A stretch of DNA of 64,000 nucleotides from Candidatus Berkelbacteria bacterium RIFCSPLOWO2_01_FULL_50_28 (GCA_001774395.1 MEZX01000002.1:160753-224752); one strand, 5' to 3'. Counted from the stretch's first letter, positions 20,522 through 50,000 are shown. Notes: a model not told the origin generated them from the letters alone. Program-made: numbers and translations.

Positions 20522-21634
20522 GTGCGGCGACTTCTGCAAGGGCGCGGCTACACAATAATTGGCATCGTTCAGGAAAAGGGCTTCTTCCAGAATCTGGCCC
20601 TTGGGAAAGTTTCCGCCAAAGATCGCTCTGTGATGTACAAGGAGCTGGCCACGATGCTAAAAGCCGGCGTCAGCATCACCCAGGCAATCGAGATCGTGGC
20701 CGAAACGCCGAACAAAAAATTACAGAAAGTGTTGCGAGAAGTATCGACCAGTTTGGAGAACGGCTTTCCGCTCTCAGTAGCGATGTCGGGGCATCCAAAA
20801 ATATTTCCTATCGTCGAAACAGGAGTGGTGCGAGCCGGTGAAGCAACCGGAAATTTAGTGAAGGTGCTCCAAGAGCTGGCCATCACTACCGAACGCTCGG
20901 CTAATTTTAGCGGCAAGGTGAAAGGCGCAATGATCTACCCGGCCTTTATTGTGGTGGTGATGATTGTGGTTGGAGCGATAATTCTGACCAAAGTTATCCC
21001 GCCGATCAAAGATATCTTCTCTACCCAGGGAGCGGAGCTACCGTTAAGTACGCGGATGCTTATCGCTATGGCAGAAGGGTTGATCAATTATTGGGGCTGG
21101 ATAATCTTGGCTGTCATTTTGTTCGTGGTCATAATCAAACTATTTCTCATTACCAAGCCGGGTAAACGAACCTCGAGCGTCTTGGCTCTGAACTTTCCGG
21201 TTTTTGGCACACTGATGCGCCAGGTTTACTTAGCGCAATTTAATCGGACGATGACGCTGCTGGTGGGTGCGGGCGTGCCAATTATTGAGGCGGTAGAAAT
21301 CGTGACGGACTCGACGACCAACGTCATCTTTCGTGACGCGCTAACTGGTTTAATGCACTCGTTGGAACAAGGCTCGCCAATTTCAGTCTCGCTACAAGGC
21401 AGTAAGTACTTCCCTAAGCTCATGACGCAGCTGCTATTTGTTGGTCAACAGTCGGGCGATTTAGGGGGGACGACCCAAACTCTGGCGGAGTATTTCGAAG
21501 GCGAGGTAGATGTAAAACTGCGAACGTTCTCGTCGCTTCTGGAGCCGTTTATTATTACTATTTTAGGGCTGGCGGTGGGGTTCATTATCGTCTCGGTGCT
21601 GCAACCGATTTACAATTTAAGCTCGGCAATCTAA
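20522..21634 (+). CDS. pilC: Type IV pilus / T2SS inner-membrane platform protein PilC (GspF family). The conserved N-terminus appears to extend upstream to about 20429 with no canonical start codon
   Basis: GspF-domain sequence (YKELATMLKAGVSITQAIEIV...). The in-frame upstream ...ERLYFRYKVKDEHGKTRAGRAAASNASQ matches PilC N-termini. It is preceded by TAG-GGAGGG-aac-ACG. Confidence 0.85.
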   Translation: MRRLLQGRGYTIIGIVQEKGFFQNLALGKVSAKDRSVMYKELATMLKAGVSITQAIEIVAETPNKKLQKVLREVSTSLENGFPLSVAMSGHPKIFPIVETGVVRAGEATGNLVKVLQELAITTERSANFSGKVKGAMIYPAFIVVVMIVVGAIILTKVIPPIKDIFSTQGAELPLSTRMLIAMAEGLINYWGWIILAVILFVVIIKLFLITKPGKRTSSVLALNFPVFGTLMRQVYLAQFNRTMTLLVGAGVPIIEAVEIVTDSTTNVIFRDALTGLMHSLEQGSPISVSLQGSKYFPKLMTQLLFVGQQSGDLGGTTQTLAEYFEGEVDVKLRTFSSLLEPFIITILGLAVGFIIVSVLQPIYNLSSAI

Positions 21635-21663
21635 GCTAAATGATGATGGGAGTACTACATTTG

Positions 21664-22554
21664 ATGGCAAAGCGACGGGGCTTTACACTCATTGAGATGC
21701 TGGTGGTTATTACCATCATTGGCATCCTTATTACCCTGATTGTTGGGGTGATCGGGCCGATACAGCGCAAGAGTCGCGATACCAAAAGAAAGTCGGAGAT
21801 CGCTCTGTTTCTGGGTGGCTTGAACGAATTCAAAGCCGATTTCAAGATTTACCCGAATTTCACCATGTACCTTGGCTCGTACGGCACTTCCGGTAACGGC
21901 GGCGAAAACTCTAACTTTGCTCTCTCCTCGACTATTCCGCAGTGCAACGGCTTGCCGGCTAACGCGGGGCAGACAGCCTCGTTTGCCGATTTGAGCTCGG
22001 TCTTTCCACCAACCACCACCCCAACAGCCGCCCAAATTGACGCTAATCCGGTTATCTTGAAAGAGGGGTCAGTTCTACCGGCTGGCTCGAGTTTCTCTTC
22101 GGTCAATCACTTCCTGGTGTGTTTGCGCTACTTAGACCGAGTTGTGGCTGATGTTAGTAAGACTGGCGCCTTGGGTTATCAGGTTAGATTCTCTTACGAT
22201 TTTTCAGACGTTTTGGTTAGTGCCGAAATGGAGAACGCCAGCGACCCGGACGCCAAGACGCTCTACAACGCCGCGGCGCCAAAACGCTATTACCAAGGTT
22301 CGGGGCTAAATATTCGTCAGCTAGACGAAGATAGCAATATCAGTAGCTTCTACTCCGGTTTATCGGGGACTATCAGCGACGGAATGTATCTGTATCAGTG
22401 CCTGAAAAAAGCCCTTCCAGCAGGAGAAGCGATAATAACCGATGACCGTTCTGGCTCCACTTACGATCCGATTATCTACTCTGGTAGCGCTTGGGCAAAA
22501 AATACTGCCTGTCAAGATGCTTCAGGAGGGCTGAATGTCGTCCGTGCGTACTAA
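21664..22554 (+). CDS. Prepilin-type (class III signal peptide) pilin/pseudopilin, about 296 aa
   Basis: MAKRRGFTLIEMLVVITIIGILITL (G|FTLIE prepilin peptidase site). Confidence 0.75.
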   Translation: MAKRRGFTLIEMLVVITIIGILITLIVGVIGPIQRKSRDTKRKSEIALFLGGLNEFKADFKIYPNFTMYLGSYGTSGNGGENSNFALSSTIPQCNGLPANAGQTASFADLSSVFPPTTTPTAAQIDANPVILKEGSVLPAGSSFSSVNHFLVCLRYLDRVVADVSKTGALGYQVRFSYDFSDVLVSAEMENASDPDAKTLYNAAAPKRYYQGSGLNIRQLDEDSNISSFYSGLSGTISDGMYLYQCLKKALPAGEAIITDDRSGSTYDPIIYSGSAWAKNTACQDASGGLNVVRAY

Positions 22555-23863
22555 AAAACGGTCCGGTTATTCCCTCATTGAGATGATGGTTGTTTTGGGG
22601 GTTATTGTGATGATCGGCATCGTTAGTCTGCCGAACATTTTTTCGCAGAACGAACGCGCCAGCCTGGACAGCAGCGCCCAGATGATCCGTCAGGTAATAA
22701 TTGACGCCTACACTCGATCGCTGGCGCCGACACGCAACGACGAATCTCGAACAGGGCAGATCTACCAAGTAGCGTTTGGCAACTTTATAACCGGTCAGCC
22801 GAAACAACAGGGCGAATTCTTCGAGGTCAGCGGTAATACCGGCACCAATAAGGTGTGGCTTGAACGGGGCCTGGCGCGCTGCGACTCTGGCGACGTACAG
22901 GGAGCGTTCTCGACTTTAAAGTCAATTACCCTGCCGCGCGGGATATTTGTCTCCAGCTTCTTTCCTAGTGATCAGCCTAACACCGAAGCAAAGTCGGTGA
23001 TCCGCTTTAGTGCTGGGGTAGAGGGCTTTCAATGCGGTAGCTACACCAAGCCCAACATCAAATCAGACAACTACCGCAACGATTTCGGATGGACTGGTGA
23101 GGATAAGAGCTTGAATCAAAAGGCCTACGCTCGTTACTTGGTAATTGAGCTTAGCGCCAACAAGATTCCCGAACACCGCTACGTTATTATGGACCGTCTA
23201 ACGAAAGAGGTTTCGGCGGTTAATTCCAACCCGCAGAGCTACTTTGCCTCGGATGGGGATAGCGCTGTACCGAAGTGGACGAGTATCAGTAACGATGACG
23301 ATATGACGCTTTCGATCGAGTGTCGAGCCAACGATGCCGATATGCTGCTGACCTTCAAACGGGCCGAAGATCGTCCTAGTGCCACCGAGAACCCCGATCC
23401 GAACCTAGCAGTTTACTACGACATCGACTGGGATTTGCATAACGGCTCTGGCTACGTGCCGCTTTCACTTAAATATTTCTACGATCTTGGCCGTAATGAG
23501 GTTAAGTTCAGTTTTACCACAACTGCCATGTCGGTTGCTTCTCGTCCCGCAAAAATTGGCATTCAGCTCAAAGCCCAGGACGAATTTGCAAATATGCAGC
23601 TGGAGAGCACTCCAGCCGATCCGCTACTACGCTGGTGGCAGAAAGATTTCATCCCTTCCTGCGGGGATCTGCCGGTAACAGAGGTGGAGGAATCCCCACC
23701 TAGCCCAATTCCACCGCAAGGTGACCCGGGCGGTGAAGCTCTGTCGTGCGGCCCGACTGCTTGGCAGCCGCACAATTGGCTTCTTGGTATTGCTTCAAAA
23801 CTTGGGTTGGTGGAGCGGACTTTTGCGCTTGTTGAAAGTGCATGTGACGATGTGGCGCTATGA
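22535..23863 (+). CDS. Prepilin-type minor pilin-like protein, 442 aa
   Basis: KRSGYSLIEMMVVLGVIVMIGIV; overlaps the upstream gene by 20 nt. Confidence 0.75.
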   Translation: MSSVRTKKRSGYSLIEMMVVLGVIVMIGIVSLPNIFSQNERASLDSSAQMIRQVIIDAYTRSLAPTRNDESRTGQIYQVAFGNFITGQPKQQGEFFEVSGNTGTNKVWLERGLARCDSGDVQGAFSTLKSITLPRGIFVSSFFPSDQPNTEAKSVIRFSAGVEGFQCGSYTKPNIKSDNYRNDFGWTGEDKSLNQKAYARYLVIELSANKIPEHRYVIMDRLTKEVSAVNSNPQSYFASDGDSAVPKWTSISNDDDMTLSIECRANDADMLLTFKRAEDRPSATENPDPNLAVYYDIDWDLHNGSGYVPLSLKYFYDLGRNEVKFSFTTTAMSVASRPAKIGIQLKAQDEFANMQLESTPADPLLRWWQKDFIPSCGDLPVTEVEESPPSPIPPQGDPGGEALSCGPTAWQPHNWLLGIASKLGLVERTFALVESACDDVAL

Positions 23864-24324
23864 TGAACACTAAACAACGCGGTTTTTCATTAATTGAGGT
23901 TCTTTTTGCCGTGTCGTTTTTGGTAATGGTGGGGGTAGCGATGGCAACGCTCAACGCTACCGCTAGTCGGTTGATTACTGGCACGGAAATCCGAGTGGAG
24001 GCCCAAGCGCTCAACGAACAGGCCCTAGCGTTCGTGGCGTTGCAAAGACGCACTATGGGCTCGGAATTTGCAACTAATTATTCTGGCTGTATCACTGGCA
24101 CAAAAGGGCCTAAAACTTGTTATGTATACTGTCCGCCAACACAGGTAGATGTCAGCTGCACCCTGACGCCGACCCGCAAGGCGACAACGCTTGGCATCAA
24201 CAAACTGCAATACGTTCCGTCTGTGCTCATTAAGACAACGGGTACAAAATATACTGTTATTGCTACTACCTCCTGGGGTAGCGGTATCAACCGTCAGATA
24301 ACGGCTAGCCAGCTGATCCAATGA
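23860..24324 (+). CDS. Prepilin-type minor pilin-like protein, 154 aa
   Basis: QRGFSLIEVLFAVSFLVMVGVAM; ATGA overlap with the upstream gene. Confidence 0.75.
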   Translation: MMNTKQRGFSLIEVLFAVSFLVMVGVAMATLNATASRLITGTEIRVEAQALNEQALAFVALQRRTMGSEFATNYSGCITGTKGPKTCYVYCPPTQVDVSCTLTPTRKATTLGINKLQYVPSVLIKTTGTKYTVIATTSWGSGINRQITASQLIQ

Positions 24325-25865
24325 GTCTTACAAGAAAAGGCAGTTTTACCCTCGTTGAGCTGATCGTTAGCGTCGCCTTGTTTATGGTTGCCATCACCGT
24401 GGCGCTTTACGCGACCGTTGGCACTCACGGTATCATTGCTCGCACGGAAGCTCGAGCGGTTGTGGCCGAGTCGAGTCGTTCGGTAAGCGACGCTATCCGG
24501 CGAATTACGGTTAACGCCCCAGTTGGGGGGATTGATTTGGTAGGCGGTCTGCAAAGCGGCGGCTATCCGGGTCTGCGCGCGCGGTCGTTTGCCAGCGGGG
24601 AATCGAGCAACATCTGTAGCATTATCGGCCGAGCCTTGGTTACCGTCGACAGTACGGGGAAAGAGCTTTTCGCCCTTGATCAAACGGGCTCAGCGATGGC
24701 GACTTGGATTTATGGCGTTGATGATGCCGGTCTCTGCCCAGCTCCTGGAACAAGCAGCCGTCTTCTCTTTCAAAATCGCCTGACCAACCGACAGACCAAG
24801 GTCACGAGCTTTTCGACGCAGCTACTCTCCATGAACTGTCAGAGCGGCTGTAGTACCAAGGAGCAGCTTCGTTATGTTCTGACTGTCGAAGAAAATACGG
24901 CCCTCGCTGGTCGGGCGTCGGAAACACGGCGGCCAAGCGTTCAGATTTCGGGTAGCGTCCCAATTGGATTAGTTGATGAGACTGTCGGCCTGCCGAACAT
25001 CGTGACGTCCGATCTGCCAGACGGTATCGTGGAAACAGCTTACAGCCAGACCTTAGTGGCGGGCGGCGGGACAACGCCGTACGCTTGGACACTGGTGTCT
25101 GGTGCACTGCCGAGCAATCTAACTCTCTCAAGCATCGGCGTAATCAGTGGCACGCCGCAAGCCGGCACGCAGGGTACTTACAATATCACCGTTCGGGTCA
25201 CTGACGATAACAGCAAAACCGATGATCAGTCCCTGATACTCCAAGTTAGCCCGGTTAACGGCGGTCCGCAACTGACCATTATAACTAACTCGCCGCTTAC
25301 TAATGGGACAGTAGGAACAGCTTACTCGGCCACGCTTCAAGGGGCTAATGGTAGCCAGCCGTATTCGTGGAGTAACCCGGGCGGCGGTTTACCAACTGGT
25401 CTAAGCCTAGCCTCTTCAACAGGCGTAATTAGCGGTACGCCAACGGTGGCTAACAACTACAGCTTCGTTATCCGCCTAACCGATAGCCAGCCGAGCTTTG
25501 TCGAGAAGACATTTAACATTCTGATTAGTGCGGGTAACCAACCGTTAACCATTACCACCACCTCCCCGCTGCCCAACGCCACGGCAACTTGTGCGTATTC
25601 ACAGCAGCTCTCAGCTACTGGAGGAACTCCGGGTTACAGCTGGGCTTTCGACGGTGTTTTGCCAATTCAACTTTCCTGGCTATCTATCAGTGCGGGAGGC
25701 CTACTAACTGGAACACCAACGATGGCAGGCGGGCCGTACACCTTTAGTGTACAAGTAACAGATTCGGGTACTCCAGTACCTGGTACCCAAACCAAGAGCT
25801 TCAACCTAACAATCGACCCGCTGTTGATGTCCTGTGGGGGCACTGGGGAAGAAGAGTTAGGATGA
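24321..25865 (+). CDS. Prepilin-type pseudopilin carrying four tandem putative-Ig (He_PIG/dystroglycan-type) repeats, 514 aa
   Basis: N-terminal KGSFTLVELIVSVALFMVAITV, then 4 units of about 95 aa (...PY.W.....LP.GL.L.S.TGVISGTP.......F.V.VTD...). Confidence 0.75.
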   Translation: MSLTRKGSFTLVELIVSVALFMVAITVALYATVGTHGIIARTEARAVVAESSRSVSDAIRRITVNAPVGGIDLVGGLQSGGYPGLRARSFASGESSNICSIIGRALVTVDSTGKELFALDQTGSAMATWIYGVDDAGLCPAPGTSSRLLFQNRLTNRQTKVTSFSTQLLSMNCQSGCSTKEQLRYVLTVEENTALAGRASETRRPSVQISGSVPIGLVDETVGLPNIVTSDLPDGIVETAYSQTLVAGGGTTPYAWTLVSGALPSNLTLSSIGVISGTPQAGTQGTYNITVRVTDDNSKTDDQSLILQVSPVNGGPQLTIITNSPLTNGTVGTAYSATLQGANGSQPYSWSNPGGGLPTGLSLASSTGVISGTPTVANNYSFVIRLTDSQPSFVEKTFNILISAGNQPLTITTTSPLPNATATCAYSQQLSATGGTPGYSWAFDGVLPIQLSWLSISAGGLLTGTPTMAGGPYTFSVQVTDSGTPVPGTQTKSFNLTIDPLLMSCGGTGEEELG

Positions 25866-28800
25866 CGACAAAAGGTAGCTCCGGCTCGGTGCTACTGCTC
25901 ACAGTGATGGTCCTGGCGGTTTTGACCACGACGACTTTCGGGGCGATCGCCGTGCGTTTTGATCAGCTTGCCGCAACGGATAAATTAACCAACTCAGCGG
26001 TTGCTAAACTGGCCGCTGACTCGGGTCTAGCCCAGCTGCGTGATAAGTTGATCAACAATCAGCCGGTCAGCCAGGCCTACTCTTACAACATCGAAACAGC
26101 CCAAGAGAATCAGATAGCCACAACCGCCGGCTATCGACCGAACCCCAGATCGTCGTACGCCACCTACGAACCAGCCAAAACTTCGCTGCCGCGCTGTATC
26201 GCCGCCGCCGTGCTGGATCCTTGGGTAAACAGCGGCAAGTATCTGTCGAAAGACGTTGCCAGCCCAACGCTAATTTTCTACTACGCCAACATCGTTAACG
26301 ACACGCCGTTGGGTATACTGCCAGCCAACGCGAACCTTTCAGTGAACGACAAGAAGATTCCGATCTCCGACGTCACCAGTATGGGTCACTTTTACAATCC
26401 GTTCGCGCCGTTGAACGCTACCCAAGATTCGCCCAGCTACTGGACGATCAAACTCGGTGGGCCGGACGACCAGTTCTTGACCCAGAAGGCCTCAAACAAC
26501 GTCGACTCGCTTTTCCGCGGCCTTGACGTCCTCTATAGCTATTATCTGCCCAGGCTGACTGACTCGGGTATCGCCGCGGGCGGCTCCCAGACGGGGTTAG
26601 ATCGAATTGATAGTGCTGATCTTACCGGTTTATTTGAAGACACGATTCGCAATAATAACTTCAAAGTTTGGCTTGACGCCTCAATTTCCGATACTTATCT
26701 CTACCAGTACGGATTAGGCGATCTGTTTGTTGCGAATTCGCAGTACCGCATAAAGTGGATGCAGCCCTCGCTCTGGAACGACTTGCCAGAAGCGGATGTG
26801 GCTGTGCCTTATAAATCAGACGATCTGGGCGCCTCGACGGTCTCGTGGACAAAGAAAGGCTTGCCGCTCCTGACGCCAGGAGCAGACATCGGCGGTTGGG
26901 GGGTATCTATCTTACGCGGCGCTTCTTCGTTTTCGTTTGTGCGCTTGAGCAGTGCCAGTAACGGCGTTGCTTTTAGCCCCGGTCAGACCATCGACGGGTT
27001 TGTTTACGGCGGCCTTGACGGTCTGCGGCTCAATTCACGCCTCAGCCTGCAGCTATTTACCAAAGTTGGCGGTCACGTCTCTTTGAAAAGTCGCGCTCAG
27101 GACCAAGGGAAACTTTACGGGGCTACCGTTACTCAGATTGGATCGGTCACTGCGCAAAATATCGCCATTAAGTTAAAACTAAGCAGCAACGACTACGAGA
27201 CGCCGACGCTCTCCTATTCCAGTGCTTACCCGACCGGCTCAATGATCGGCACAATCGCCTTGCTTGCCGCGCCGCAGTTCTCGACTAACAAGTCTCTCTC
27301 CTCGGCGACAGTCAAGGCCGATGGGGACGGCATAAATGCCAACATTACGGTGCAGAGTAACGGTAACTGCGTTGCTGTCGCGGGCAGCTTTACCGCCTGT
27401 CCGGCGGTGGGGGATCTTATCGGCCTGTCAAAATCTGGCCAAGATCCGCTTTGGGGGATGGTTGAGACGGTTAGTTTTACTGGTACAAACCTCGGTAGTT
27501 TTACGATAGACAAATTGCGACGGGGGCCAAAACCTACCCGCCATCAAGCAGTGACGTACTATACAGCCAACTCTAACCCGCGTATCGCCTACTTCGGCGG
27601 CGCGATCGATATGAACGATTACGACGGCGGTTACGCTTCAGAGAGTGCGGAACTGTGGATTTACGACCCAGAAGGCGACAGTTGGAGCTATCCGAATAAC
27701 CCTGGTGGCACGCCACCGGGACCGCGCGCCGGCGCTTCGATGGTCTACGATAACGTCAACGGTCGCTTGGTGGTTGTTGGTGGCTACTATCACGAGGCAG
27801 TGACTCCCGATGCCAACCCGGCCTTTGACTGTGAGATTAGCCAGCAGTCGTGCTTGTACACTAACCGGCCTCATTTTCGTATCGCCAAACGAATAGTTAA
27901 CGACGTCTATGCCTACAATATCGCCGGTAATTCCTGGGAGAAGATGAACTACACCTTTACCGGCGCGGCCCAAAAGATTGAGAACGGTGTCACCTACACC
28001 GCTCGAGTGGTCTCAACGCTGGCCAATCGAAGCGGGTTAGAAGGCTGGCGCCAGACGACGCTGATGGAGAACGCCTCGCCGCAGACTATCAACATTAACG
28101 GCGCGGCGACTAATATTGTTGTTAAGCCGTCCGCGGCCGGGCTGGCAATCGGGGACGAGCTGTATCTTTCCGGAAAGCTCACCGTTAGCGCCGCCTCATT
28201 CACTGCCTGGGGGAGGATAACCGGCATCAATTACGCCGCCAACAGTATCACCGTTACCGTGCGCGGCTATAAAAAAGCTGCTCCCACCGATCCAAACACA
28301 GTGACACTGAGTGATCTTTCGATGCAGGTCTTAAGTCGTCTCGGAAACGGCAACGGTCAAACTTGTACAGGAGTTGTTACTACCTCTTACTCTTGCAATT
28401 TCAGTAATATCACTGGTTTTGCCGTTGGCGACCAAGTGGTTCTGGAGAGATATGTTGGATCAGAAAATTTAACAGATGTTTTAAGCGGTTTTATCAGCTA
28501 CACCTCGGGTACGTCAGCCTATTTTGTGGCCGACGAACGCGACAGCGCCATCTTAGATTTCGCCGATCAGTCTCTGGGTCGCCCTAGCGGCGGCACGGCC
28601 GTCGCCTTCCCTGTTGGGCGTTACGGGGCAACGCTTGGGCAGGATCCAACTGCTGGCGACACAGATAAAGCGCTGTTGTATCAAGGGGCGTCGAAGAATT
28701 TTGCTGCTAATTTGCGTTTTAACGATGTCTGGCAGGCCAAATTCAACGCTGGCACTGGCACCGGCAGTATTGCCTGGACGCTGTTCAATTTGCAGAATCC

Positions 28801-30964
28801 CCAAGGGCCGAATACCGATTCTGGATACTATATTCAGAATATCCGTTCGTCGTACTTTGCTAATGTCTTCACAAGCTCCGTTGCGGCCGAGAACCCGGGG
28901 ATGGTCAAAGACTTGGATTACACCGATCCGCGGACTGAACAGCACTATGTAGCGTGGGATGAGACTAAAAACTGGACTTTGAAACTCGACACGACGGGGC
29001 AGGAGAGTCTATCCAGCGGCCAACTTGTGCCAGGCGCCCAGATTATTATTGAGCGCCAGAGCTTGGTTGCTGACGGAGCTCAGCCGCGCGGTCGTGAAGT
29101 TTTCCACGGTTACATCGTCAGTAACTTTGGCGGCTCTTATGACAGCACCAAGATAGTGGTGCGCCACAACCCGTCTTACGCCGACGACAAAGGTCTGCTC
29201 GGAGATTCAGCCGCTTCTAAAATCTCTATCTATTCCTATCTGCCAACGACCGCCCCGATCCGTAAACAGAGCGATTCGAACTGGCTAACCGCCGCGTGGG
29301 ACGGGACAACGAAGAGTTTCACTGTTAGCTCAAGCGACATCAACCTTAACGAAATCCCACCAGTTGGAGCTCTGATTCAATCCTGGAAAAACCCCAACAG
29401 CAGTGCCACGATCGATGCGACGCTCTTTGTGGTGAAGGGCCGTACTTACAGCTACAACCTCGGGGCGCATCAGTTCCGATTCGATGTGGATACCATCAAG
29501 CTCTCCACGCCTCTCCCAATTGCCTTCGGTAGCAACCAGGTGGTCGGAGATGCTAATAGTGCCCGGGTTATGTCGCTTGGTGATCAAAATATGCCTTGGG
29601 ACAGCTGGGCTGCACCGGACTGGGCGACAGACGCTTCTGCCAATAATCGCTGGGTTATCCGTCGTTCTGCCACGGGAAACCCGGGTTACGCGCCAGGTCC
29701 GCGCCAAGCAGCCGCTCTAGGGTCGTATTTCGATGGCACAAATTCGCAACTCTATATGGCTGGGGCTAGCTTCGGTCCGACGTCGACAGTTTGGAAAAAA
29801 TCCAACGCTGGCAAGACTACTTATACTAGCGACACTGCCTGGTCGTTTCTCAAGACATCGCCGAACAACGACAACGGTTTACCCAGTTTGTGGGGCTCCT
29901 CGATGATTGTTTACCGGTTCAATAGCCAAACAAAAGCGGTTTATTTCAACGGTAAGTTGAAGTACGACAACGGCCGTAACGATTACGGTCGCACCGTTGG
30001 GGCTCGTATCTTGGGGCGGCCGGACTTGAATCGCTGGGGAACCGAATCCAACGGCGGTTACCAGAACAGTGACAATACTTTTTATCTGGACGACACTAGC
30101 TCAACGCTTGATTCGGCCGGGTTTGTTAGTAGTATTTACAACAACTTCCCCACAACCGCTCCAACATCGGTCAAAGATAGTTTTCGCCTCAAGGGATACG
30201 GAATTACGCCAACATCGCAAGGCGGTTGGAGCACCGGCAAAGCGGTCTGCCCGTACTTGGGTCAGAAATGCGACGGCGGTAACGATTACAGCCCGCTTTT
30301 GGGCAGCCTGGGAACGCTCGGCCGCAGCTCCAGTAACAGCAGCGCCTACGGCGGCTACGGTTGGGGCTCGAGTCGAGCGGTTCTGAACCCTGGTTCGGCA
30401 TTCTTGAGCCAAGGTGGCAACGCGAGCGCGATTCTCTCCGGGCCAACATTCTCTGGCAACATCACCAACGGTCGTTGGGAGCAGGACGGTTACGCACCGT
30501 ATCTCTGTGACTCGCAAGTCGGCTGCGGCAATTACTATCAATCGAACTACGGCTCGCTGGCAACTAATTTCCAGAGCGATAAGACGATAATGTTTGCTGG
30601 TTACACTAAACTGATCGGCGGCGGTAAGGGCGGAGCGATTCTGGTCACGCCAGCCGGCGTCGGCACAGGGTTTCTAACCAAATCCGGCATACTTGGTGGC
30701 GCGAGTGATCGTTGGTACTCGTACTGCGCCGCCAGCGACACTACTGTTGATGGCAGCGATAACTACACCTGTAACACCAAAGCAACGCGCTATTTGCCCT
30801 GGTTGCCGGACATCGAAGATATGCTTTTCCTGATGAACGCCGCGGTAAAGTTGGCCTCGGCCGACAGCTACAAAGTCACCGGTTACTACGGCAACGCCCG
30901 TCGGGCCTATATTGTCACTTCCGTTACCGGCGAAGATGCGAAGGTTCAGGAAATAACGCCGTAA
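25862..30964 (+). CDS. Giant pilus-associated protein (1700 aa) with a PilX-like N-terminal TM segment; Gly/Thr/Asn-rich, beta-rich. A putative tip adhesin by analogy to PilY1
   Basis: MTTKGSSGSVLLLTVMVLAVLTTTTFGAIAV; 4-nt overlap with the preceding pseudopilin; no catalytic motifs seen. Confidence 0.8.
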   Translation: MTTKGSSGSVLLLTVMVLAVLTTTTFGAIAVRFDQLAATDKLTNSAVAKLAADSGLAQLRDKLINNQPVSQAYSYNIETAQENQIATTAGYRPNPRSSYATYEPAKTSLPRCIAAAVLDPWVNSGKYLSKDVASPTLIFYYANIVNDTPLGILPANANLSVNDKKIPISDVTSMGHFYNPFAPLNATQDSPSYWTIKLGGPDDQFLTQKASNNVDSLFRGLDVLYSYYLPRLTDSGIAAGGSQTGLDRIDSADLTGLFEDTIRNNNFKVWLDASISDTYLYQYGLGDLFVANSQYRIKWMQPSLWNDLPEADVAVPYKSDDLGASTVSWTKKGLPLLTPGADIGGWGVSILRGASSFSFVRLSSASNGVAFSPGQTIDGFVYGGLDGLRLNSRLSLQLFTKVGGHVSLKSRAQDQGKLYGATVTQIGSVTAQNIAIKLKLSSNDYETPTLSYSSAYPTGSMIGTIALLAAPQFSTNKSLSSATVKADGDGINANITVQSNGNCVAVAGSFTACPAVGDLIGLSKSGQDPLWGMVETVSFTGTNLGSFTIDKLRRGPKPTRHQAVTYYTANSNPRIAYFGGAIDMNDYDGGYASESAELWIYDPEGDSWSYPNNPGGTPPGPRAGASMVYDNVNGRLVVVGGYYHEAVTPDANPAFDCEISQQSCLYTNRPHFRIAKRIVNDVYAYNIAGNSWEKMNYTFTGAAQKIENGVTYTARVVSTLANRSGLEGWRQTTLMENASPQTININGAATNIVVKPSAAGLAIGDELYLSGKLTVSAASFTAWGRITGINYAANSITVTVRGYKKAAPTDPNTVTLSDLSMQVLSRLGNGNGQTCTGVVTTSYSCNFSNITGFAVGDQVVLERYVGSENLTDVLSGFISYTSGTSAYFVADERDSAILDFADQSLGRPSGGTAVAFPVGRYGATLGQDPTAGDTDKALLYQGASKNFAANLRFNDVWQAKFNAGTGTGSIAWTLFNLQNPQGPNTDSGYYIQNIRSSYFANVFTSSVAAENPGMVKDLDYTDPRTEQHYVAWDETKNWTLKLDTTGQESLSSGQLVPGAQIIIERQSLVADGAQPRGREVFHGYIVSNFGGSYDSTKIVVRHNPSYADDKGLLGDSAASKISIYSYLPTTAPIRKQSDSNWLTAAWDGTTKSFTVSSSDINLNEIPPVGALIQSWKNPNSSATIDATLFVVKGRTYSYNLGAHQFRFDVDTIKLSTPLPIAFGSNQVVGDANSARVMSLGDQNMPWDSWAAPDWATDASANNRWVIRRSATGNPGYAPGPRQAAALGSYFDGTNSQLYMAGASFGPTSTVWKKSNAGKTTYTSDTAWSFLKTSPNNDNGLPSLWGSSMIVYRFNSQTKAVYFNGKLKYDNGRNDYGRTVGARILGRPDLNRWGTESNGGYQNSDNTFYLDDTSSTLDSAGFVSSIYNNFPTTAPTSVKDSFRLKGYGITPTSQGGWSTGKAVCPYLGQKCDGGNDYSPLLGSLGTLGRSSSNSSAYGGYGWGSSRAVLNPGSAFLSQGGNASAILSGPTFSGNITNGRWEQDGYAPYLCDSQVGCGNYYQSNYGSLATNFQSDKTIMFAGYTKLIGGGKGGAILVTPAGVGTGFLTKSGILGGASDRWYSYCAASDTTVDGSDNYTCNTKATRYLPWLPDIEDMLFLMNAAVKLASADSYKVTGYYGNARRAYIVTSVTGEDAKVQEITP

Positions 30965-32892: not shown

Positions 32893-33233
32893 CTTAACGT
32901 AACTATAATCTAACCTTTGAAATATGTCAAGGGCTATTGACAACTATTGTACAATATGCTATTATCCCCTTTGAAGCTTAACAATAGGTTGTCAATAGAA
33001 ACTGACTTTTCGCCGATAGGGACCACGGCAGAGGCGCTCCTACCCGCAAGGGATGTGAGCGATGCTCGTTTGAGCGGTACGCCGCCCTAAAGACTTTTAG
33101 TTGGTACTTGTCGATCCTTGTGAGCCCACATTCCTTGAATAGCGATTATTAATCACTAGAAAGGGATATTCAGCACCTAACCGTGCTGACATGTAAGGGA
33201 AATAACCTTTACATATCAGTGCGGTTAACGGCT

Positions 33234-33369
33234 GGGGGCGAACGGGTTCGACAGAGACCCAAGTGCGTGGTTAGGGCGTGGTAGCCCAACTCGGAAAAAC
33301 GGCTCAAGAAAGACCGAGCATCACGTAGCAAGTCTTTGGAACTGGGTTCGATTCCCAGCGCCTCCACCA
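33234..33369 (+). ncRNA. ssrA: Miniature tmRNA (ssrA)-like RNA: canonical tmRNA 5' and 3' tRNA-like halves only about 136 nt apart; no identifiable tag reading frame or pseudoknots
   Basis: 5' GGGGGCGAACGGGUUCGACAGAGACCCAAGUGCG resembles B. subtilis GGGGACGUUACGGAUUCGACAGGGAU. 3' GGAACUGGGUUCGAUUCCCAGCGCCUCCACCA resembles GGACGUGGGUUCGACUCCCACCGUCUCCACCA. A G3-U70 pair is present and CCA is encoded. Confidence 0.5.
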
Positions 33370-33548
33370 GATTCGTTTCAACCGGTCGCCGACAAATAAA
33401 GGCGGCCAGCGGCTACCCCCTCCGGGTTTAGGGGTAGCAGTGGGCGGTTATGTAACCCACTGCCTAGGATCACCGCCAAGGTGATCTGACGACTTAGGGA
33501 ACCAAAACTTGGCGAAAGAGAGTCCGTATACTCTCAGGTTCCCGCCTC

Positions 33549-33610
33549 GGATCCGGCTCGAGGCCCGTGCTCGAGCCTGAAATTGAGGGAATTGTCCCTT
33601 GCACTTTACA
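33549..33610 (+). promoter_or_regulatory. Cassette-upstream element A (hairpin GGCTCGAGG-cccgtg-CTCGAGCC + CTGAAATTGAGGGAATTGTCCCTTGCACTTTACA)
   Basis: Member of a 5-copy family (A-E) confined to 33.5-35.6 kb. Confidence 0.6.
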
Positions 33611-33734
33611 AATAGAAAGTTGATAGAGCTTCGGCAAAACTATCCGTTAGTCAGACGACGTTAAGTCCGGCCCTCAGTCGAACGAGTAGCAATACTTGGA
33701 CGAGGATGTATTTCAAGGGAACAGTGAAAGTAAT

Positions 33735-38370: not shown

Positions 38371-39309
38371 TCAACTCTTAAGTGCGGGGTCAAGTGCGTC
38401 GCCTCTTTTTGTGTCGTGAAAACGATGATGGGCTTCGCGCAGGCTACGGTCGGTCACGTGGGTGTAAATTTGCGTCGTCGCGACCGACGAGTGGCCAAGC
38501 AGAGCCTGAACCGAGCGAAGGTCGGCGCCGTTTTGCAGCAAGTCGGTGGCAAAGCCGTGACGAAGTTTGTGCGGGGTGACTGGTTTACTCAAGCCGGCTT
38601 TGAGCGCCAGAGTGTGGAGAATGCGCTGGACGGAACGGGCGGTGAGCGATGTTTTGTTGCTGTCGAGACGGCTATTGGTGTAGTGTCTGATGAAAACAAA
38701 GGGGTTGCTATCGCTGCGTGACTCCAAGTAATCGGCCAAAATCTCGAGCGCCTCGTCGGATAAGAATACCGGTCGAACTTTGCCGCCTTTGCCCTTAACT
38801 GAAAATTCGCCTTTCACTAGGCTGACCTCGTTTCTTTTTAGCGCCACCAGCTCGCTGACCCGTAGGCCCGTCGAAAAGAGGGTTTTAACAATGGCCCGGT
38901 CCCGTTTATCGGTTAATCGTTCGCCCGCAATCGCCGCGTTGAGCCGTTCCATATCATCAGCGCTAATAAACTGAATCTGTCGCTGGCCGGTTTTGCTCAA
39001 CGGTATTTTAGCGATCGAAATTACATTGGCTTCCGACATCGAGAGAAACCGTAGCAGCGAGCGCAGGGCAATTAAGTAATAATTTCGGCTGCTCGGCCCA
39101 AGCGGCGGCGTGTGCTTGGTGGCAAGATGCTCTTGAAACTCTAAAATGTCGTCGCCGCCGATTTTCTCAACATCGATTAGTTTGGCTTCAAGTGCCCAGG
39201 CAGAAAAAGAATTTAGGTAGTGCTCGTAATTGCGCAAAGTGTACGGGGAGTAGTTGCGTCCCACTCGGCAGTAGCGCAGGTATTCCTTAACGGCGCGCGT
39301 GATGGTCAT
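38371..39309 (-). CDS. xerC: Tyrosine site-specific recombinase XerC/XerD family
   Basis: C-terminal ...HKLRHGFATDLLQNGADLRSVQALLGHSSVATTQIYTHV (R..HxxR...Y catalytic signature). Confidence 0.9.
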   Translation of the reverse strand: MTITRAVKEYLRYCRVGRNYSPYTLRNYEHYLNSFSAWALEAKLIDVEKIGGDDILEFQEHLATKHTPPLGPSSRNYYLIALRSLLRFLSMSEANVISIAKIPLSKTGQRQIQFISADDMERLNAAIAGERLTDKRDRAIVKTLFSTGLRVSELVALKRNEVSLVKGEFSVKGKGGKVRPVFLSDEALEILADYLESRSDSNPFVFIRHYTNSRLDSNKTSLTARSVQRILHTLALKAGLSKPVTPHKLRHGFATDLLQNGADLRSVQALLGHSSVATTQIYTHVTDRSLREAHHRFHDTKRGDALDPALKS

Positions 39310-46505: not shown

Positions 46506-47021
46506 ATGGAAGAAGAATACTCGTTTAAAGGACAGCGTTCGGATGAGCAAGTGGTGCTGGTTACCAAGCAACATCTGTGGCTCTTGTCGCCGTTAGTTCT
46601 TGTTTGGGCGGTGATAATTGGGTTGATTCTGCTCTTGGTTTGGTGGCAAGGGGCGTCGCGAGTGAGTTCGTATATAACTTTTGGCATCGCCGTGGTTGGG
46701 CTAATTTACAGCTATTACTTTTGGTTTATCTGGAACAACTCCGATTATATTGTGACCAACCAGCGGGTGATCAAAATGGATCAAATTAGCTTCTTCAACC
46801 GGGTTATTTCTGAAGCCGAAATTGACCGAATCCAAGAGATTTCAACCGAGGTGGCGGGGCCGATTCACACCTTACTCAAATTCGGCACGGTCCGTATTAA
46901 AACAGCATCGGACTCCGGCAAAATGGACCTGGACGACTTGACCGACCCGTACTCGGTTCAGCAAGTTATTGTGAGTATCCAGAAAAAAACCCACCCCAAC
47001 CGGCCCCCGCGGATTATTTAG
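46506..47021 (+). CDS. Membrane protein with a bacterial PH (bPH_2/DUF304, YdbS/YdbT-like) domain
   Basis: Two TM helices, then YIVTNQRVIKMDQ... Confidence 0.6.
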   Translation: MEEEYSFKGQRSDEQVVLVTKQHLWLLSPLVLVWAVIIGLILLLVWWQGASRVSSYITFGIAVVGLIYSYYFWFIWNNSDYIVTNQRVIKMDQISFFNRVISEAEIDRIQEISTEVAGPIHTLLKFGTVRIKTASDSGKMDLDDLTDPYSVQQVIVSIQKKTHPNRPPRII

Positions 47022-50000
47022 ACGTTGTCGAGAAAAAGTTGGGCAATCTCTTCGTCTAGATCGGCGCACTTTTCGACAGTCAGTGTTGTGCGGACGGCTT
47101 TAACGAGGCCGTTCTGGGCAACTCGTAGTTCAACCGGGGTTGTGCCAGGGTAGCCCTCTAGGAGTGATTTTAGTTTTGGGACAAGAGAGCGCGCGGCACC
47201 AGAAGGTAGATCGATCATGTAAGTTGAGGGCCCGTTGGGTTTGGCGGGGGAAGAGCCGCCGTTGGGTCGAGCCGCCCTGACTGTGCTCTCTAGCTTCGGT
47301 AGCATCTGCGGGCTGACTTCTTTCAAGTCCCAAACCCTTTCTGCCAAAAGTTTGACGGTGGAATCTTTGTCGGAAATCCGGGCGTCAACGATCACCATTT
47401 TGTCGGTCTGCCAGAGCGTTGGGAATTGGCCTAGAATTGTCGGGAAAACTATCACTTCTAGCTGGCCGGTTAGATCTTCCAGCTCGGCAAATGCCATCTG
47501 AGCCCCAGCTTTGGTGGTAATTTTTTTGAACTGCTGCAGTATTCCCGCTACTCGTACCATCTTGCCTGCCTGCTCGATGCTGAGCGTCGCAATCGGTGTC
47601 GCAAGGCTTGTTAGGGCAGGGAACTGTTTGAGCGGGTGATCGGAAAGGTAAAGTCCAAGTAGCTCCTTTTCCCAAGTTAAATAGGCCGCTTTATCTTCGA
47701 CGGTTGTTGGTAGCACAACAGCGGGCAAGTTCTGCTTATTGACCGCTTCGGCGAAGATACTGAGCTGACCCTCCGTCACTCCTTTGCCGCCGGCCGCGTA
47801 TTTAACCAGTAGCTCTAGAGCTCCGTGAAGATCGCTTCGTTTACCGAATCTGTCGAGCGCTCCGGAGCGCACGAGGCTGTCTAGGACTTTCTTGTTGAGC
47901 GTCGCCCCGTTTCGACTCAGGAAATCTTCCAAGGTTTCGTACGGGCCGTTGGTTTTGCGCTCCCGTACCATGGCCTTGGCCACCGCGGTACCGACGTTCT
48001 TAATGGCCCCGAGTCCAAAACGGATTGCCTTCTTCTCTTTTAGCACGGCAAAGGCGGCGAACGATTCGTCGACGTCTGGCGGCAAAACTTTCAATCCCAT
48101 ATGCTCGCACTCGGAAATTTCAATAGAGAGGCGATCGGTGTTATCTAGGTCACTAGTCATCAGGGCGGCCATAAAACAATCTGGGAAGTGAGCCTTGAGA
48201 TAGGCCGTTTGATAAGCGATAGTGGCGTAGCTGACGGCGTGGCTTTTGTTGAAGCAATACGCGGCGAAGTCTTCGAGCTGTTTCCAAATATCTCGTGCCT
48301 TAGTCTCGACTACCCCGTTTTTGACCGCGCCCGTGATGAATTTTTCTTTCATCTGGGCCATCAATTTTGGTATTTTTTTACCGACTGCTTTGCGCATTGT
48401 GTCGGCTTCCGCCCCCGTGAAACCGCACATGTCTTTGCTCATCCGCATGACTTGCTCTTGGTAGACTGGAATCCCGTAGGTGTCTTTGAGGGCGTCTTTT
48501 GCCAATGGATGCAGATACTCAATTTTTTCTTTGCCGTTTTTGCGATCGATGAAACTCTGAATCCACTGCATCGGGCCGGGTCGGTAAAGCGCTACCATGG
48601 CGACGATATCCTCGAGCTTATTGGGGCGTAGCTCCTTGATGTAGCGTTTCATTCCGCTCGAGTTATGGACAACAAAGCCGTTAGCAACGTAGTTATTGCC
48701 CGGGGTTTCCATTTTTATGTCATACGTCTCTTCAATTCCGGCGGGTTTGATTGCTTTGACGGTGACGTAATCAAATCCTGAGGGAATTCGCGGGCACTCC
48801 CAGGCGACTAGCGTTCGGTACTTGAGGGCGAACTCGGCGAACTTTGTCGTGCTAATTATGACTAACTTGATTGCCGGGTATTGTTTCTGGAATTCTTCCA
48901 TCTTCAGCCGGTCGCCATCGTGTAGCCAGCCCTTAATCTCATAGTAAGTATTTTCGCTTGGAACAAAAAAGTCTGGCGTATAATTGGTGCTTCTACCGTC
49001 TGGTAAGGTGACGGGGAAAGTTTCAGGTTCGTAGTCGTAAGCTAACCCGTTATGAATTAGAACACGGGCAAAATCAGCCTCCCAATTTGAGCGAACATAA
49101 TGTCCTAAGTCCTGCCGAAAACCACCCTTTCTGTGCGGTGGCCTGCGGCCAAACATGTGATTTTTTTCGCCTCTCATTGCTTCGCTCATCCGTAAGCGGA
49201 TCTCTTCTGCTCGCTCGGGCCCGAACTTATCGATGTTTGTTTTTCCGGCCAGACTGCGACTGATCTTTTCGCCCGTTAAAGCCAGTAAAGCGCTACTCTC
49301 CTTTGTTTCCCCAAGATTCCAAGGCTTTCCGCCACTTTCGTAAAAACGGTGTCGGGATTCAGCAATCCGTTGACGCGAAATTGCTTTGCTTGGATTACTG
49401 TAATGGCGTGCCGAACAGGTATAACAGTACTGGCTTTTCCCTTCTTTTTGGCCATCAATTTGCCTTCCGCAGATGTGGCAGGTGTTGTAAATCAGATGCT
49501 TGGCCTTATTCTTGAGTAAGATTTCCTCGCCGTTTATTAACTCGCTTAGCTTCTTCCAACCATCCTTAGTCAAAAAATGATGATCGGCGCTGGCCTTAAT
49601 GAACCAGCCATTAGTAGCGATGAGATTATAGAGTTGCTTTTTGGGACCCTTCAACACGCGCAGGATTTTATTTTTATGGACTTTGCCTTCGTCGAGGTAG
49701 ACTGACTCTAGCCGCTTTTTGTCCTGGGTCGTGTAAAGCTTTTTTATCGTTGTATTTGAGATGATGGTATCGCCCGATAAACATTCAAGCTGAAAGACAC
49801 CTGTTGTCTCGCCCTTGCCAAACAGCTCGAAAGTTTCTTTGTCATTTTCCGGCAGGTTGTAAACGTCAATTTTGTCGCCGTAAACTGCCTCGATTATCTC
49901 GCAGCACTGACGCAAGATGGTGTAGTTGGCCAGTCCCAAAAAGTCCATTTTTAGTAGGCCAATCTTTTCGATCGGGCCCATCGAATACTGGGTAACCTGG

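What the first reader, a model, noticed from the sequence alone, without database searches (positions are those of the whole stretch)
33234..33369. Miniature ssrA/tmRNA-like gene lacking the mRNA-like (tag) domain
Unmistakable tmRNA 5' and 3' tRNA-like halves are only about 136 nt apart. The 5' half is GGGGGCGAACGGGTTCGACAGAGACCCAAGTGCG and the 3' half is ...GGAACTGGGTTCGATTCCCAGCGCCTCCACCA, with a G3-U70 pair. Normal tmRNAs are about 350 nt with four pseudoknots and a tag ORF ending ...AA-stop. The intervening about 75 nt forms only two short hairpins. The only short frame (AQLGKTAQERPSIT*) does not look like a degradation tag. Either this is a decayed or deleted ssrA (an island scar) with the functional copy elsewhere, or a reduced tmRNA-like RNA. 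The 170 nt downstream (33371-33545) holds three further perfect hairpins
Basis: partly seen in the sequence, partly recalled or inferred. Interest (0 to 1): 0.65.

Follow-up and report, generated by a model that had tools for sequence, protein, structure and literature searches.

The report
Conserved miniature tmRNA without a tag
A groundwater bacterium of the Candidate Phyla Radiation carries a 136-base version of the ribosome-rescue RNA (tmRNA) that keeps the tRNA-like part but has no conserved tag-coding frame, and related mini-tmRNAs turn up in other bacteria and in large phages, so it is a working, selected RNA and not a broken gene.

Summary
Window 33234-33369 (+) is a 136-nt RNA gene that passes Rfam's tmRNA threshold end to end (65.2 bits, cut-off 47). 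About 282 core positions are replaced by 50 nt, and ARAGORN does not call it. It is not a scar. The relaxed pattern scans recovered 51 copies (43 distinct sequences) of 112-139 nt. They lie in cellular contigs (this Berkelbacteria genome, Saccharibacteria, Chloroflexota) and in phage contigs with tRNA arrays. All six helices covary: 94.7% of cells are paired against 46-54% when partners are slid. Against its closest relative, 11 of 35 pairs changed on both sides and none broke. The interior is P2b plus two hairpins. The second hairpin has a roughly 19-nt loop carrying an A-rich + GCC motif like a tmRNA resume site (29 of 43 interiors against 4.3 in shuffles). No stop codon is conserved, so the window's AQLGKTAQERPSIT* frame looks accidental. 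My best reading is a reduced tmRNA without a tag-coding frame, still alanine-charged and SmpB-dependent, that frees stalled ribosomes without adding a degradation tag. The main rival is a decoy that soaks up SmpB, as proposed for phage DS6A's 83-nt form. I could not test whether this genome also has a full-length ssrA or smpB.

The parts
33234..33369 (+). Mini-tmRNA gene, 136 nt, with CCA encoded.
   Evidence: RF00023 at 65.2 bits against a cut-off of 47, model 1-374. My own model R1 scores 162 bits.
33234..33240 (+). Acceptor stem, 5' strand GGGGGCG. It pairs with 33359-33365 (CGCCUCC) and includes G3-U70.
   Evidence: This helix is 99.7% paired across 47 aligned sequences, and pairs 5 and 6 covary.
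33241..33252 (+). D-loop analogue AACGGGUUCGAC, with no D stem, as in tmRNA.
   Evidence: Rfam alignment. It is nearly identical in L035 and L047.
33253..33258 (+). P2a, 5' strand AGAGAC. It pairs with 33332-33337 (GUCUUU).
   Evidence: Helix 2: all 6 of its pairs show changes on both sides, and 91.7% of cells are paired.
33259..33263 (+). Internal loop CCAAG, opposite GCAA at 33328-33331.
   Evidence: Identical in L035. Also present in the Chloroflexota copies such as L006, L001 and L053.
33264..33271 (+). P2b, 5' strand UGCGUGGU. It pairs with 33320-33327 (AUCACGUA).
   Evidence: Helix 3: 8 of 8 pairs show changes on both sides. Three pairs changed on both sides against L035.
33274..33287 (+). 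Hairpin H1, GGGC-GUGGUA-GCCC. The loop GUGGUA is invariant in the window's closest group.
33290..33318 (+). Hairpin H2: stem CUCGG/CCGAG around the 19-nt loop AAAAACGGCUCAAGAAAGA (33295-33313). The loop carries the A-rich + G(G/C)C resume-like motif.
   Evidence: Helix 5: 5 of 5 pairs show changes on both sides, and 95.8% of cells are paired.
33342..33358 (+). T-arm, CUGGG-UUCGAUU-CCCAG.
   Evidence: 98.7% paired.
33366..33369 (+). Discriminator A plus encoded CCA.
32937..32965 (+). Near-consensus sigma-70-type promoter, TTGACA-17-TATTAT with TG. It is a candidate promoter for the transcript that holds the mini-tmRNA. This is inferred.
   Evidence: 11 of 12 hexamer positions match.
32972..33233 (+). 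Structured leader of 262 nt, including a hairpin of about 22 bp at 33178-33227 that ends 6 nt before the mature 5' end. It is presumed to be removed by RNase P. This is inferred.
   Evidence: Fold z-score -4.84, with 0 of 200 shuffles folding as well. L035 and L047 show no similar hairpin upstream.
33384..33620 (+). Cluster of seven hairpins downstream of the CCA end. Whether it belongs to the RNA is doubtful. It may be a trailer, terminator-like elements or a separate RNA.
   Evidence: (z-score -2.73). It is not alignable with the L035 downstream region. L047 has two intrinsic terminators there instead.

Best explanation
This is a genuine, selectively maintained, reduced tmRNA with no conserved tag-coding frame, carried on the chromosome of a Candidatus Berkelbacteria (CPR) bacterium. 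It keeps everything a tmRNA needs to behave as a tRNA. It has the 7-bp acceptor stem with the G3-U70 alanine identity pair, discriminator A, encoded CCA, a canonical T-arm, the stem-less D-loop analogue and helix P2 with its CCAAG/GCAA internal loop. The pseudoknots and the tag frame are replaced by a 57-nt module made of P2b, H1 and H2. The H2 loop still presents an A-rich stretch followed by GCC/GCG/GGC, like the region that positions the resume codon. The proposed mechanism is inferred, not shown. RNase P and 3' processing would release the 136-nt RNA. AlaRS would charge it. SmpB and EF-Tu would deliver it to the empty A site of a ribosome stalled on a non-stop mRNA. The nascent chain would be transferred to its alanine. 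Because no in-frame stop codon is conserved, the chain would get no canonical degradation tag. Release would then depend on drop-off with peptidyl-tRNA hydrolase, on an ArfB-type factor, or on a few codons read from the H2 loop. The outcome would be ribosome rescue without tagging, as is assumed for the tag-less mitochondrial tmRNAs. What is shown: the RNA, its family, its conserved structure, the conserved loop motif and the lack of a conserved stop. What is inferred: charging, the SmpB partnership and the action on the ribosome.
For: RF00023 matches end to end above its threshold. Pattern scans found 51 copies, 43 of them distinct, of 112-139 nt in genomes, metagenomes and viral contigs, and every one I scanned (18 loci plus the window) passes RF00023's threshold. 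All six helices covary: 94.7% of cells are paired against 46-54% when partners are slid, the covariation score is 0.462 against 0.05-0.07, and 32 of 35 pairs changed on both sides. Window against L035 is 100/136 identical, with 11 double changes, 3 single changes and 0 broken pairs out of 35. The motif AAA.?GC[CG] occurs in 29 of 43 interiors, against a mean of 4.3 and a maximum of 10 in 500 shuffles, and the search pattern did not impose it. No stop codon is conserved. L035 has no stop in any frame from the motif to the T-arm. L047 has none in the GCN frame. In the trio L015/L022/L026 only L015 has the stop. The context is chromosomal and not phage: GroEL, EF-P, S6-SSB-S18, purD, DnaE and aminoacyl-tRNA synthetases are present, and no PHROG hallmark genes lie nearby. 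The organism is named. The relative L047 is also cellular (UvrC) and its copy is followed directly by terminators, so it is a stand-alone gene. [quoted passage not shown]
Against: I could not check whether this genome has smpB or a second, full-length ssrA. Neither is in the 64-kb window, in the 9 kb beyond its 3' end, or in any related locus, and most of the genome is out of reach. The family is rare and patchy: 6 of 185,579 species genomes matched the strict pattern. It is also shared with phages. That distribution fits a horizontally moved accessory RNA as well as it fits an essential rescue RNA. G3-U70 and the TLD consensus were required by my search pattern, so their presence in the relatives is not independent evidence. 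The alignment used for the covariation counts was fitted to the model's structure, which inflates the counts, although the hand comparison does not depend on it. How a ribosome would be released without a stop codon is unknown. A closed interior of about 73 nt may be too small to be threaded as mRNA.
Confidence: 0.5

Rival explanations
1. It is a decoy or regulator. The mini-tmRNA binds SmpB, and possibly AlaRS and EF-Tu, without completing trans-translation. That would dampen the activity of a separate full-length tmRNA. It would be a phage invention, useful for keeping phage proteins from being tagged, that this bacterium acquired or domesticated.
For: Phage DS6A carries an 83-nt TLD-only form. 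According to Hudson et al. 2014 and the 2025 database paper, a similar molecule inhibits endogenous tmRNA in E. coli, perhaps by titrating SmpB. Many family members sit in phage tRNA arrays or beside phage genes: L013, L025, L026, L028, L032, L044/L052 and L007. IMG/VR holds 36 further loci with shorter TLD-only forms, mostly 81-95 nt and up to 108 nt. The distribution in cellular genomes is sporadic. The H1 loop GUGGUA is shared by the window's group and by L013, a phage-like contig (PHROG matches, 11 tRNAs), and also by L019, L020 and L031, whose context is unresolved.
Against: The window copy lies in a non-phage chromosomal setting of a genome of about 0.6 Mb or more, where a self-inhibitor is hard to justify. 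The 112-139-nt class keeps a conserved inner module and a resume-like motif that a pure SmpB sponge would not need, and DS6A lacks both. The window, L035 and L047 show lineage-wide purifying selection in cellular contigs.
Confidence: 0.27
2. It is a real tmRNA with an unusual short tag. The ribosome would resume in the H2 loop (GCU at 33302) or at GCC (33284) and add AQERPSIT or AQLGKTAQERPSIT before the UAG at 33326-33328.
For: An in-frame UAG exists. About 15 of 40 family members have a stop within roughly 10 codons of the motif, for example AR*, AH*, AHA* and AQE*. Two-residue tags are accepted in Fermentibacterota.
Against: That share is what chance gives: about 38% of random frames contain a stop within 10 codons. 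The nearest relative L035 has no stop in any frame, and L047 has none in the GCN frame. In the trio L015/L022/L026 the stop is not conserved. The peptide does not end in a hydrophobic Ala-rich degron. The stop lies inside helix P2b.
Confidence: 0.07
3. It is a decayed ssrA: a pseudogene made by an internal deletion, or a remnant of genomic-island integration.
For: The tmRNA core of about 230 nt is missing. A tyrosine recombinase gene lies 5 kb away at 38371-39309.
Against: Both termini are intact and no 3'-end duplicate exists. The same architecture recurs in 43 distinct sequences with compensatory changes and no broken pairs against L035. The recombinase has the Xer-type domain layout and sits beside the rpsF-ssb-rpsR operon. 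GC content is flat across the region.
Confidence: 0.03
4. It is a tRNA-like processing or punctuation element. The TLD would serve mainly as an RNase P / RNase Z substrate that cuts a long structured transcript (leader 32972-33233, trailer 33370-33620) into separate RNAs, and would not act in translation.
For: A near-consensus promoter lies 270 nt upstream. Both flanks are unusually structured, with z-scores of -4.84 and -2.73.
Against: The flanks are not conserved in L035 or L047, whereas the mini-tmRNA is. tmRNA-specific features (the D-loop analogue, the P2 internal loop, the resume-like motif) are conserved beyond what processing needs.
Confidence: 0.05

Closest known systems
Standard one-piece tmRNA (SsrA; Rfam RF00023)
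   Same: It shares the acceptor stem with G3-U70, the stem-less D-loop analogue GA..GG.UUCGAC, the T-arm, the ACCA end and helix P2 with a CCAAG/GCAA-type internal loop. It also has an A-rich stretch followed by GCN, where a resume codon would sit. It scores above the family threshold.
   Different: It is 136 nt against roughly 350 nt. It has no PK2-PK4, no demonstrable PK1, no conserved stop codon and no degron-like tag. ARAGORN does not call it.
Mycobacteriophage DS6A 'TLD-only' tmRNA, and the phage forms like it in IMG/VR
   Same: Both have no tag-coding frame, an intact TLD plus P2, and occur in phages.
   Different: DS6A is 83 nt, scores 43.2 bits (below the cut-off of 47), and closes P2 with a short loop. 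It has no P2b/H1/H2 module and no A-rich + GCC motif. The window copy is chromosomal in a bacterium.
Mitochondrial tmRNA of jakobids and oomycetes (RF02544), and the roughly 65-bp plastid forms of Mallomonadaceae
   Same: These are reduced tmRNAs with no tag frame. They are thought still to help with non-stop mRNAs together with SmpB (PMC11915505; PMC3590771).
   Different: They are organellar, usually permuted or far shorter, and have no inner module. I made no sequence comparison here.
[quoted passage not shown]
   Same: They are bacterial chromosomal tmRNAs without a recognisable tag frame. The second comes from the same Rifle aquifer genome project.
   Different: The paper gives one sentence, and I could not obtain the sequences. 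The window genome is a Berkelbacteria MAG with other accessions, and my pattern did not hit that species' representative genome. Whether it is the same kind of RNA is unknown.
tmRNAs with 2-residue (Ala-Ala) tags, Fermentibacterota
   Same: The coding capacity is reduced to an extreme.
   Different: Those keep a conserved frame with a stop codon. This family does not.

Membership tests
tmRNA (RF00023, one-piece) | tRNA-like domain: 7-bp acceptor stem with G3-U70, discriminator A, T-arm with the GUUCGANUC loop, and a D-loop analogue without a stem. | tested here: met
   Acceptor and T-arm helices are 99.7% and 98.7% paired across the family.
tmRNA (RF00023, one-piece) | Score at or above Rfam's curated gathering threshold, matched over both model ends. 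| tested here: met
   65.2 bits against 47, model 1-374.
tmRNA (RF00023, one-piece) | Helix P2 linking the TLD to the body. | tested here: met
   P2a and P2b covary: 6 of 6 and 8 of 8 pairs show changes on both sides.
tmRNA (RF00023, one-piece) | Pseudoknot PK1 upstream of the resume codon. | tested here: inconclusive
   H1 occupies the position of PK1. I found no consistent pairing between the H1 loop and downstream sequence when I inspected by eye.
tmRNA (RF00023, one-piece) | Tag reading frame: a resume codon followed by a conserved frame that ends in a stop codon. | tested here: not met
   A resume-like motif is present. No stop or frame is conserved, and L035 has no stop in any frame.
tmRNA (RF00023, one-piece) | Pseudoknots PK2-PK4 or their replacements. 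| tested here: not met
   Only 50 nt stand in for 282 model positions.
tmRNA (RF00023, one-piece) | Partner gene smpB in the same genome. | not testable with these tools
   It is absent from the window, from the 9 kb beyond it and from all loci by tblastn. The rest of the genome could not be read.
tmRNA (RF00023, one-piece) | Aminoacylation with alanine, and binding of SmpB and EF-Tu. | not testable with these tools
   This needs biochemistry. Only the identity elements can be seen in the sequence.
tmRNA without a tag frame / TLD-only (phage DS6A type, organellar type) | Intact TLD and no tag reading frame. | tested here: met
tmRNA without a tag frame / TLD-only (phage DS6A type, organellar type) | Body reduced to little more than the TLD, with P2 closed by a short loop, about 65-85 nt in all. 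| tested here: not met
   The window RNA is 136 nt and has a conserved 57-nt inner module. DS6A is 83 nt and has none.
Two-piece (permuted) tmRNA (RF04321 and relatives) | Gene order with the acceptor piece (3' TLD half with CCA) before the coding piece (5' TLD half). | tested here: not met
   The order here is the standard one. RF04321 gives only 23 bits against 47, over the T-arm and trailer. The supposed downstream 5' half, GGGGUAG, cannot pair with CGCCUCC and lacks UUCGAC.
ssrA fragment left by genomic-island integration | A duplicated 3' part of ssrA beside an integrase, with only one gene end present. | tested here: not met
   Both ends are present, and no second copy of the 3' 25 nt exists at up to 3 mismatches. 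No phage or island genes lie nearby.
tRNA-Ala | Cloverleaf with a D-arm and an anticodon arm. | tested here: not met
   ARAGORN and the Rfam tRNA model make no call here.

The most novel reading that the evidence does not exclude
The 112-139-nt mini-tmRNAs are a distinct, previously undescribed class. In some CPR lineages, and possibly some Chloroflexota lineages, the mini form would be the only tmRNA. Together with SmpB it would perform tag-free ribosome rescue, adding only alanine or a few residues read from the H2 loop. Large phages would carry the same class among their tRNA genes. That would make tagging dispensable in free-living or episymbiotic bacteria, not only in organelles.
Probability: 0.3. 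Interest if true: 0.8.

Novelty: new variant of a known kind. Interest (0 to 1): 0.6.

Why it matters
In bacteria, trans-translation is normally described as rescue plus tagging. Forms without a tag frame are so far accepted only in organelles and in one phage, with a one-line mention of two bacterial groups. This window gives a concrete bacterial example with a defined, covarying structure, and a set of 43 distinct relatives that can be used for experiments. If it is the cell's only tmRNA, ribosome release and proteolytic tagging can be uncoupled in bacteria, and the minimal RNA needed for rescue becomes directly testable. If it is a decoy, it marks a widespread way for phages, and perhaps cells, to switch off trans-translation. 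There is also a practical point. Rfam-based pipelines will label these genes 'tmRNA', while ARAGORN either misses them or invents false tags on them.

Tried and rejected
1. My first genome-contig scan used a pattern with one N too many and found nothing, which wasted a scan.
2. BLAST of the 136 nt against 50,697 phage records found nothing.
3. Permuted or two-piece reading: rejected (and the sequence itself).
4. The downstream hairpins as the 'missing' tmRNA body: there is no second T-arm or acceptor strand, no Rfam hit, and no conservation in L035 or L047.
5. A pseudoknot between the H1 loop or 5' regions and the AAAGCC motif: candidate pairings found by eye were not consistent across relatives.
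6. Looking for smpB with E. coli SmpB by tblastn in the window and in all 55 loci: no hit. Extending 9 kb past the window end found neither smpB nor ssrA.
7. Finding the identity or sequence of '9FT-COMBO-53-11 sp001772805': it is not in the supplements, the taxonomy or other papers.
8. I did not use the search for homologous proteins for SmpB, because its hits cannot be filtered by genome.
9. The MAFFT alignment of nine relatives mis-registered the 5' ends. I therefore built a covariance model from three sequences.

Full report
**The observation**

Rfam's tmRNA model RF00023 matches it from model position 1 to 374 at 65.2 bits (curated threshold 47, E 3.5e-23). The match aligns the acceptor stem, the D-loop analogue, helix P2 and the T-arm, and skips 282 core positions against 50 nt of sequence. 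ARAGORN, which needs a tag frame, reports only three ordinary tRNAs in the 64 kb. A pattern made of tmRNA TLD consensus positions matches once in the window and never in shuffles. The frame AQLGKTAQERPSIT* exists, starting at 33284.

**Organism and setting**

Proteins of the window are identical to proteins of Candidatus Berkelbacteria bacterium RIFCSPLOWO2_01_FULL_50_28 and RIFCSPHIGHO2_01_FULL_50_36. These are Rifle aquifer CPR genomes; the assemblies seen here are GCA_001776175.1 and GCA_001776125.1. The window is ordinary chromosome. It carries GroEL, a type IV pilus / T2SS-F cluster with giant pilin-like proteins, purD, DnaE, EF-P, rpsF-ssb-rpsR, L27, L19 and several aminoacyl-tRNA synthetases.

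The mini-tmRNA lies between a divergently transcribed TrmB-family regulator with a methyltransferase and a secreted 207-aa protein. No PHROG hallmark gene is nearby. GC content is flat. There is no second copy of the 3' end that would mark an integration site.

**Relatives**

A pattern requiring only TLD consensus bases and a 70-100-nt interior found six species genomes: Anaerolineales/Anaerolineae, Chloroflexia, another Chloroflexota, Saccharibacteria and Myxococcota. It also found one viral contig. A slightly relaxed pattern found 43 metagenome contigs. Together these give 51 copies and 43 distinct sequences of 112-139 nt. Every copy I scanned (18 loci plus the window) passes the RF00023 threshold.

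Contexts fall into two groups.
- **Cellular.** The window; L047 (UvrC); L001/L055 (ABC transporter, histidine kinase); L004 (glycosyltransferase); and L002/L027/L036, which are Saccharibacteria and carry FtsK, AlaRS and an rRNA operon a few kb away.
- **Phage.** L013, L025, L026 and L028 sit inside arrays of 4-27 tRNA genes. L013, L025, L026, L032 and L044/L052 have PHROG matches to UvsX-like recombinase, DNA polymerase, helicase or tail fibre proteins.

**Structure**

The window RNA divides as follows (RNA positions, 1 = 33234).
- Acceptor stem: 1-7 with 126-132.
- D-loop analogue: 8-19.
- P2a: 20-25 with 99-104.
- Internal loop: CCAAG opposite GCAA.
- P2b: 31-38 with 87-94.
- Hairpin H1: 41-54, loop GUGGUA.
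- Hairpin H2: 57-85, 5-bp stem and 19-nt loop.
- T-arm: 109-125.
- 3' end: ACCA.

I built a covariance model from the window, L035 and L047. It aligned all the mini forms. On that alignment 94.7% of cells form standard pairs, against 46-54% when the 3' partners are slid by 1-3 columns. The covariation score is 0.462 against 0.05-0.07. In all, 32 of 35 pairs show changes on both sides, including every pair of P2a, P2b, H1 and H2. That alignment was fitted to the structure, so I also compared the window with L035 by hand. The two are 100/136 identical. Of the 35 pairs, 11 changed on both sides, 3 changed on one side and none broke. All unpaired segments are identical or nearly so, except the H2 loop. 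This pattern is that of a functional RNA under purifying selection, and it rules out a decaying pseudogene or an integration scar.

**The interior**

About half of the family shares the full P2b-H1-H2 layout. The Chloroflexota copies lack H1 but keep the CCAAG/GCAA loop and a hairpin like H2. The most conserved unpaired feature is an A-rich run followed by GCC, GCG or GGC in the large loop. The motif AAA.?GC[CG] occurs in 29 of 43 interiors, against a mean of 4.3 and a maximum of 10 in 500 shuffles. My search pattern did not impose this motif. From general knowledge of tmRNA, it looks like the A-rich region and GCN resume codon of standard tmRNA.

**No conserved tag frame**

Reading from that motif, about 15 of 40 sequences reach a stop within roughly 10 codons, which is close to the 38% expected by chance. 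The rest do not. L035, the window's nearest relative, has no stop codon in any frame between the motif and the T-arm. L047 has none in the GCN frame. In the near-identical trio L015/L022/L026 only one member has the stop. The family therefore has no conserved tag frame, and the window's UAG-terminated frame is most simply an accident.

**Flanks**

A near-consensus promoter (TTGACA-17-TATTAT with TG) lies at 32937-32965. The 262 nt between it and the mature 5' end fold unusually well (z -4.84), including a hairpin of about 22 bp that ends 6 nt before G1. Downstream, seven hairpins fill 33384-33620 (z -2.73). Neither flank is conserved. The L035 downstream region does not align, and in L047 the CCA is followed directly by two intrinsic terminators. 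I therefore treat the flanks as lineage-specific and not as part of the RNA. Their role is unexplained.

**What is already known**

The tmRNA database papers record several forms without a tag frame.
- An 83-nt 'TLD only' form in mycobacteriophage DS6A. A similar molecule inhibits endogenous tmRNA in E. coli, perhaps by titrating SmpB.
- Mitochondrial tmRNAs, and plastid tmRNAs of about 65 bp.

I located the DS6A form at JN698994 28478-28560. It scores 43.2 bits, below the Rfam threshold, and consists of the TLD and P2 closed by a short loop, with no inner module. IMG/VR holds 36 further loci with such short forms, mostly 81-95 nt and up to 108 nt, but only two with forms longer than 108 nt. 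The window RNA is thus intermediate between the TLD-only forms and standard tmRNA. I found no description of this intermediate class or of its presence in CPR bacteria.

**Mechanism**

What the sequence preserves is what a tmRNA needs to be processed, charged with alanine, bound by SmpB and EF-Tu and accommodated in an empty A site, plus the element that sets the resume position. What it has lost is what makes a tag. My best explanation (confidence about 0.5) is tag-free rescue in partnership with SmpB. smpB is known to be highly expressed in groundwater Patescibacteria.

The main rival (about 0.27) is an SmpB decoy of phage origin. The DS6A precedent, the phage copies and the sporadic distribution all support it. 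Against it stand the conserved inner module, the chromosomal non-phage context and the small size of the genome.

The two readings are separated by one fact I could not obtain: whether this genome also encodes a full-length ssrA. None is present in the window, in the 9 kb beyond it, or in 134 kb of loci that carry mini forms. smpB was likewise not found by tblastn in any sequence I held.

**Verdict**

The feature is real and its description is accurate. The scar interpretation is refuted and the reduced-RNA interpretation is supported. I rate it a new variant of a known kind, with interest 0.6.

Noticed in passing
window 33384-33620 (+): Seven consecutive hairpins, mostly perfect, lie directly after the CCA end. 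They include 33412-33438, 33437-33463, 33468-33486 and 33555-33577, and the fold z-score is -2.73. There is no Rfam match and no conservation in L035 or L047. They may be terminator-like elements, a trailer or a separate small RNA.
   Followed up: partly
window 32937-33233 (+): A near-consensus promoter is followed by a 262-nt leader that folds far better than shuffles (z -4.84). The leader ends in a hairpin of about 22 bp (33178-33227), 6 nt before the mature 5' end. A second near-consensus promoter on the minus strand (32930-32902) faces the TrmB-family regulator gene.
   Followed up: partly
loci L062-L097 (IMG/VR viral contigs): Thirty-six viral loci (26 distinct sequences) carry TLD-only tmRNA-like genes, mostly 81-95 nt and up to 108 nt, like that of phage DS6A. 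Each is a TLD plus P2 plus a tiny hairpin. This class looks much commoner in phages than the single published example suggests.
   Followed up: partly
L027 8721-10442 (-) and 11652-11787 (-): In the Saccharibacteria-type locus, an alanyl-tRNA synthetase gene (573 aa) lies 1.2 kb from the mini-tmRNA on the same strand. In L002 and L036 the same RNA lies a few kb from the 23S-5S rRNA genes.
   Followed up: no
window 33274-33287; same element in L035, L047, L013, L019, L020, L031: Hairpin H1 (GAGC-GUGGUA-GCUC in L035 and L047) resembles a tRNA D-arm with its GG dinucleotide, even though the TLD already has its own D-loop analogue. Its loop is invariant across cellular and phage-like copies.
   Followed up: no
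L003 4094-4354, L013 1883-2201, L016 2514-3053, L051 1476-2010: ARAGORN anchors on the 3' end of a mini-tmRNA and reports longer 'tmRNAs' with implausible tags, such as APTDTAFILDSLG* and EAAQARALG*. These look like false calls and could mislead automated annotation.
   Followed up: partly
window 47018-51610 (-): The DNA polymerase III alpha gene (1530 aa) carries an intein, according to the precomputed Pfam hits PF14890 Intein_splicing and, weakly, PF05367.
   Followed up: no
window 20522-30964 (+): This stretch holds a T2SS-F / type IV pilus gene, an Ig-domain protein and a 1700-aa protein with a pilin-like N-terminus.
   Followed up: no
L053 6987-7157 (+): A skipping-rope RNA (RF02924, 38.5 bits against 36.7) lies about 3.8 kb from the Chloroflexota mini-tmRNA and tRNA cluster.
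   Followed up: no
L006 6549-7900, L053 2909-4361, L051 1887-2293: In the Chloroflexota copies, the mini-tmRNA is embedded in a conserved tRNA gene cluster (Thr, Tyr, then the mini-tmRNA, then His, Pro/Trp or Trp/Leu/Phe). In L006 the next tRNA starts 17 nt after it. This suggests co-transcription with tRNAs.
   Followed up: no
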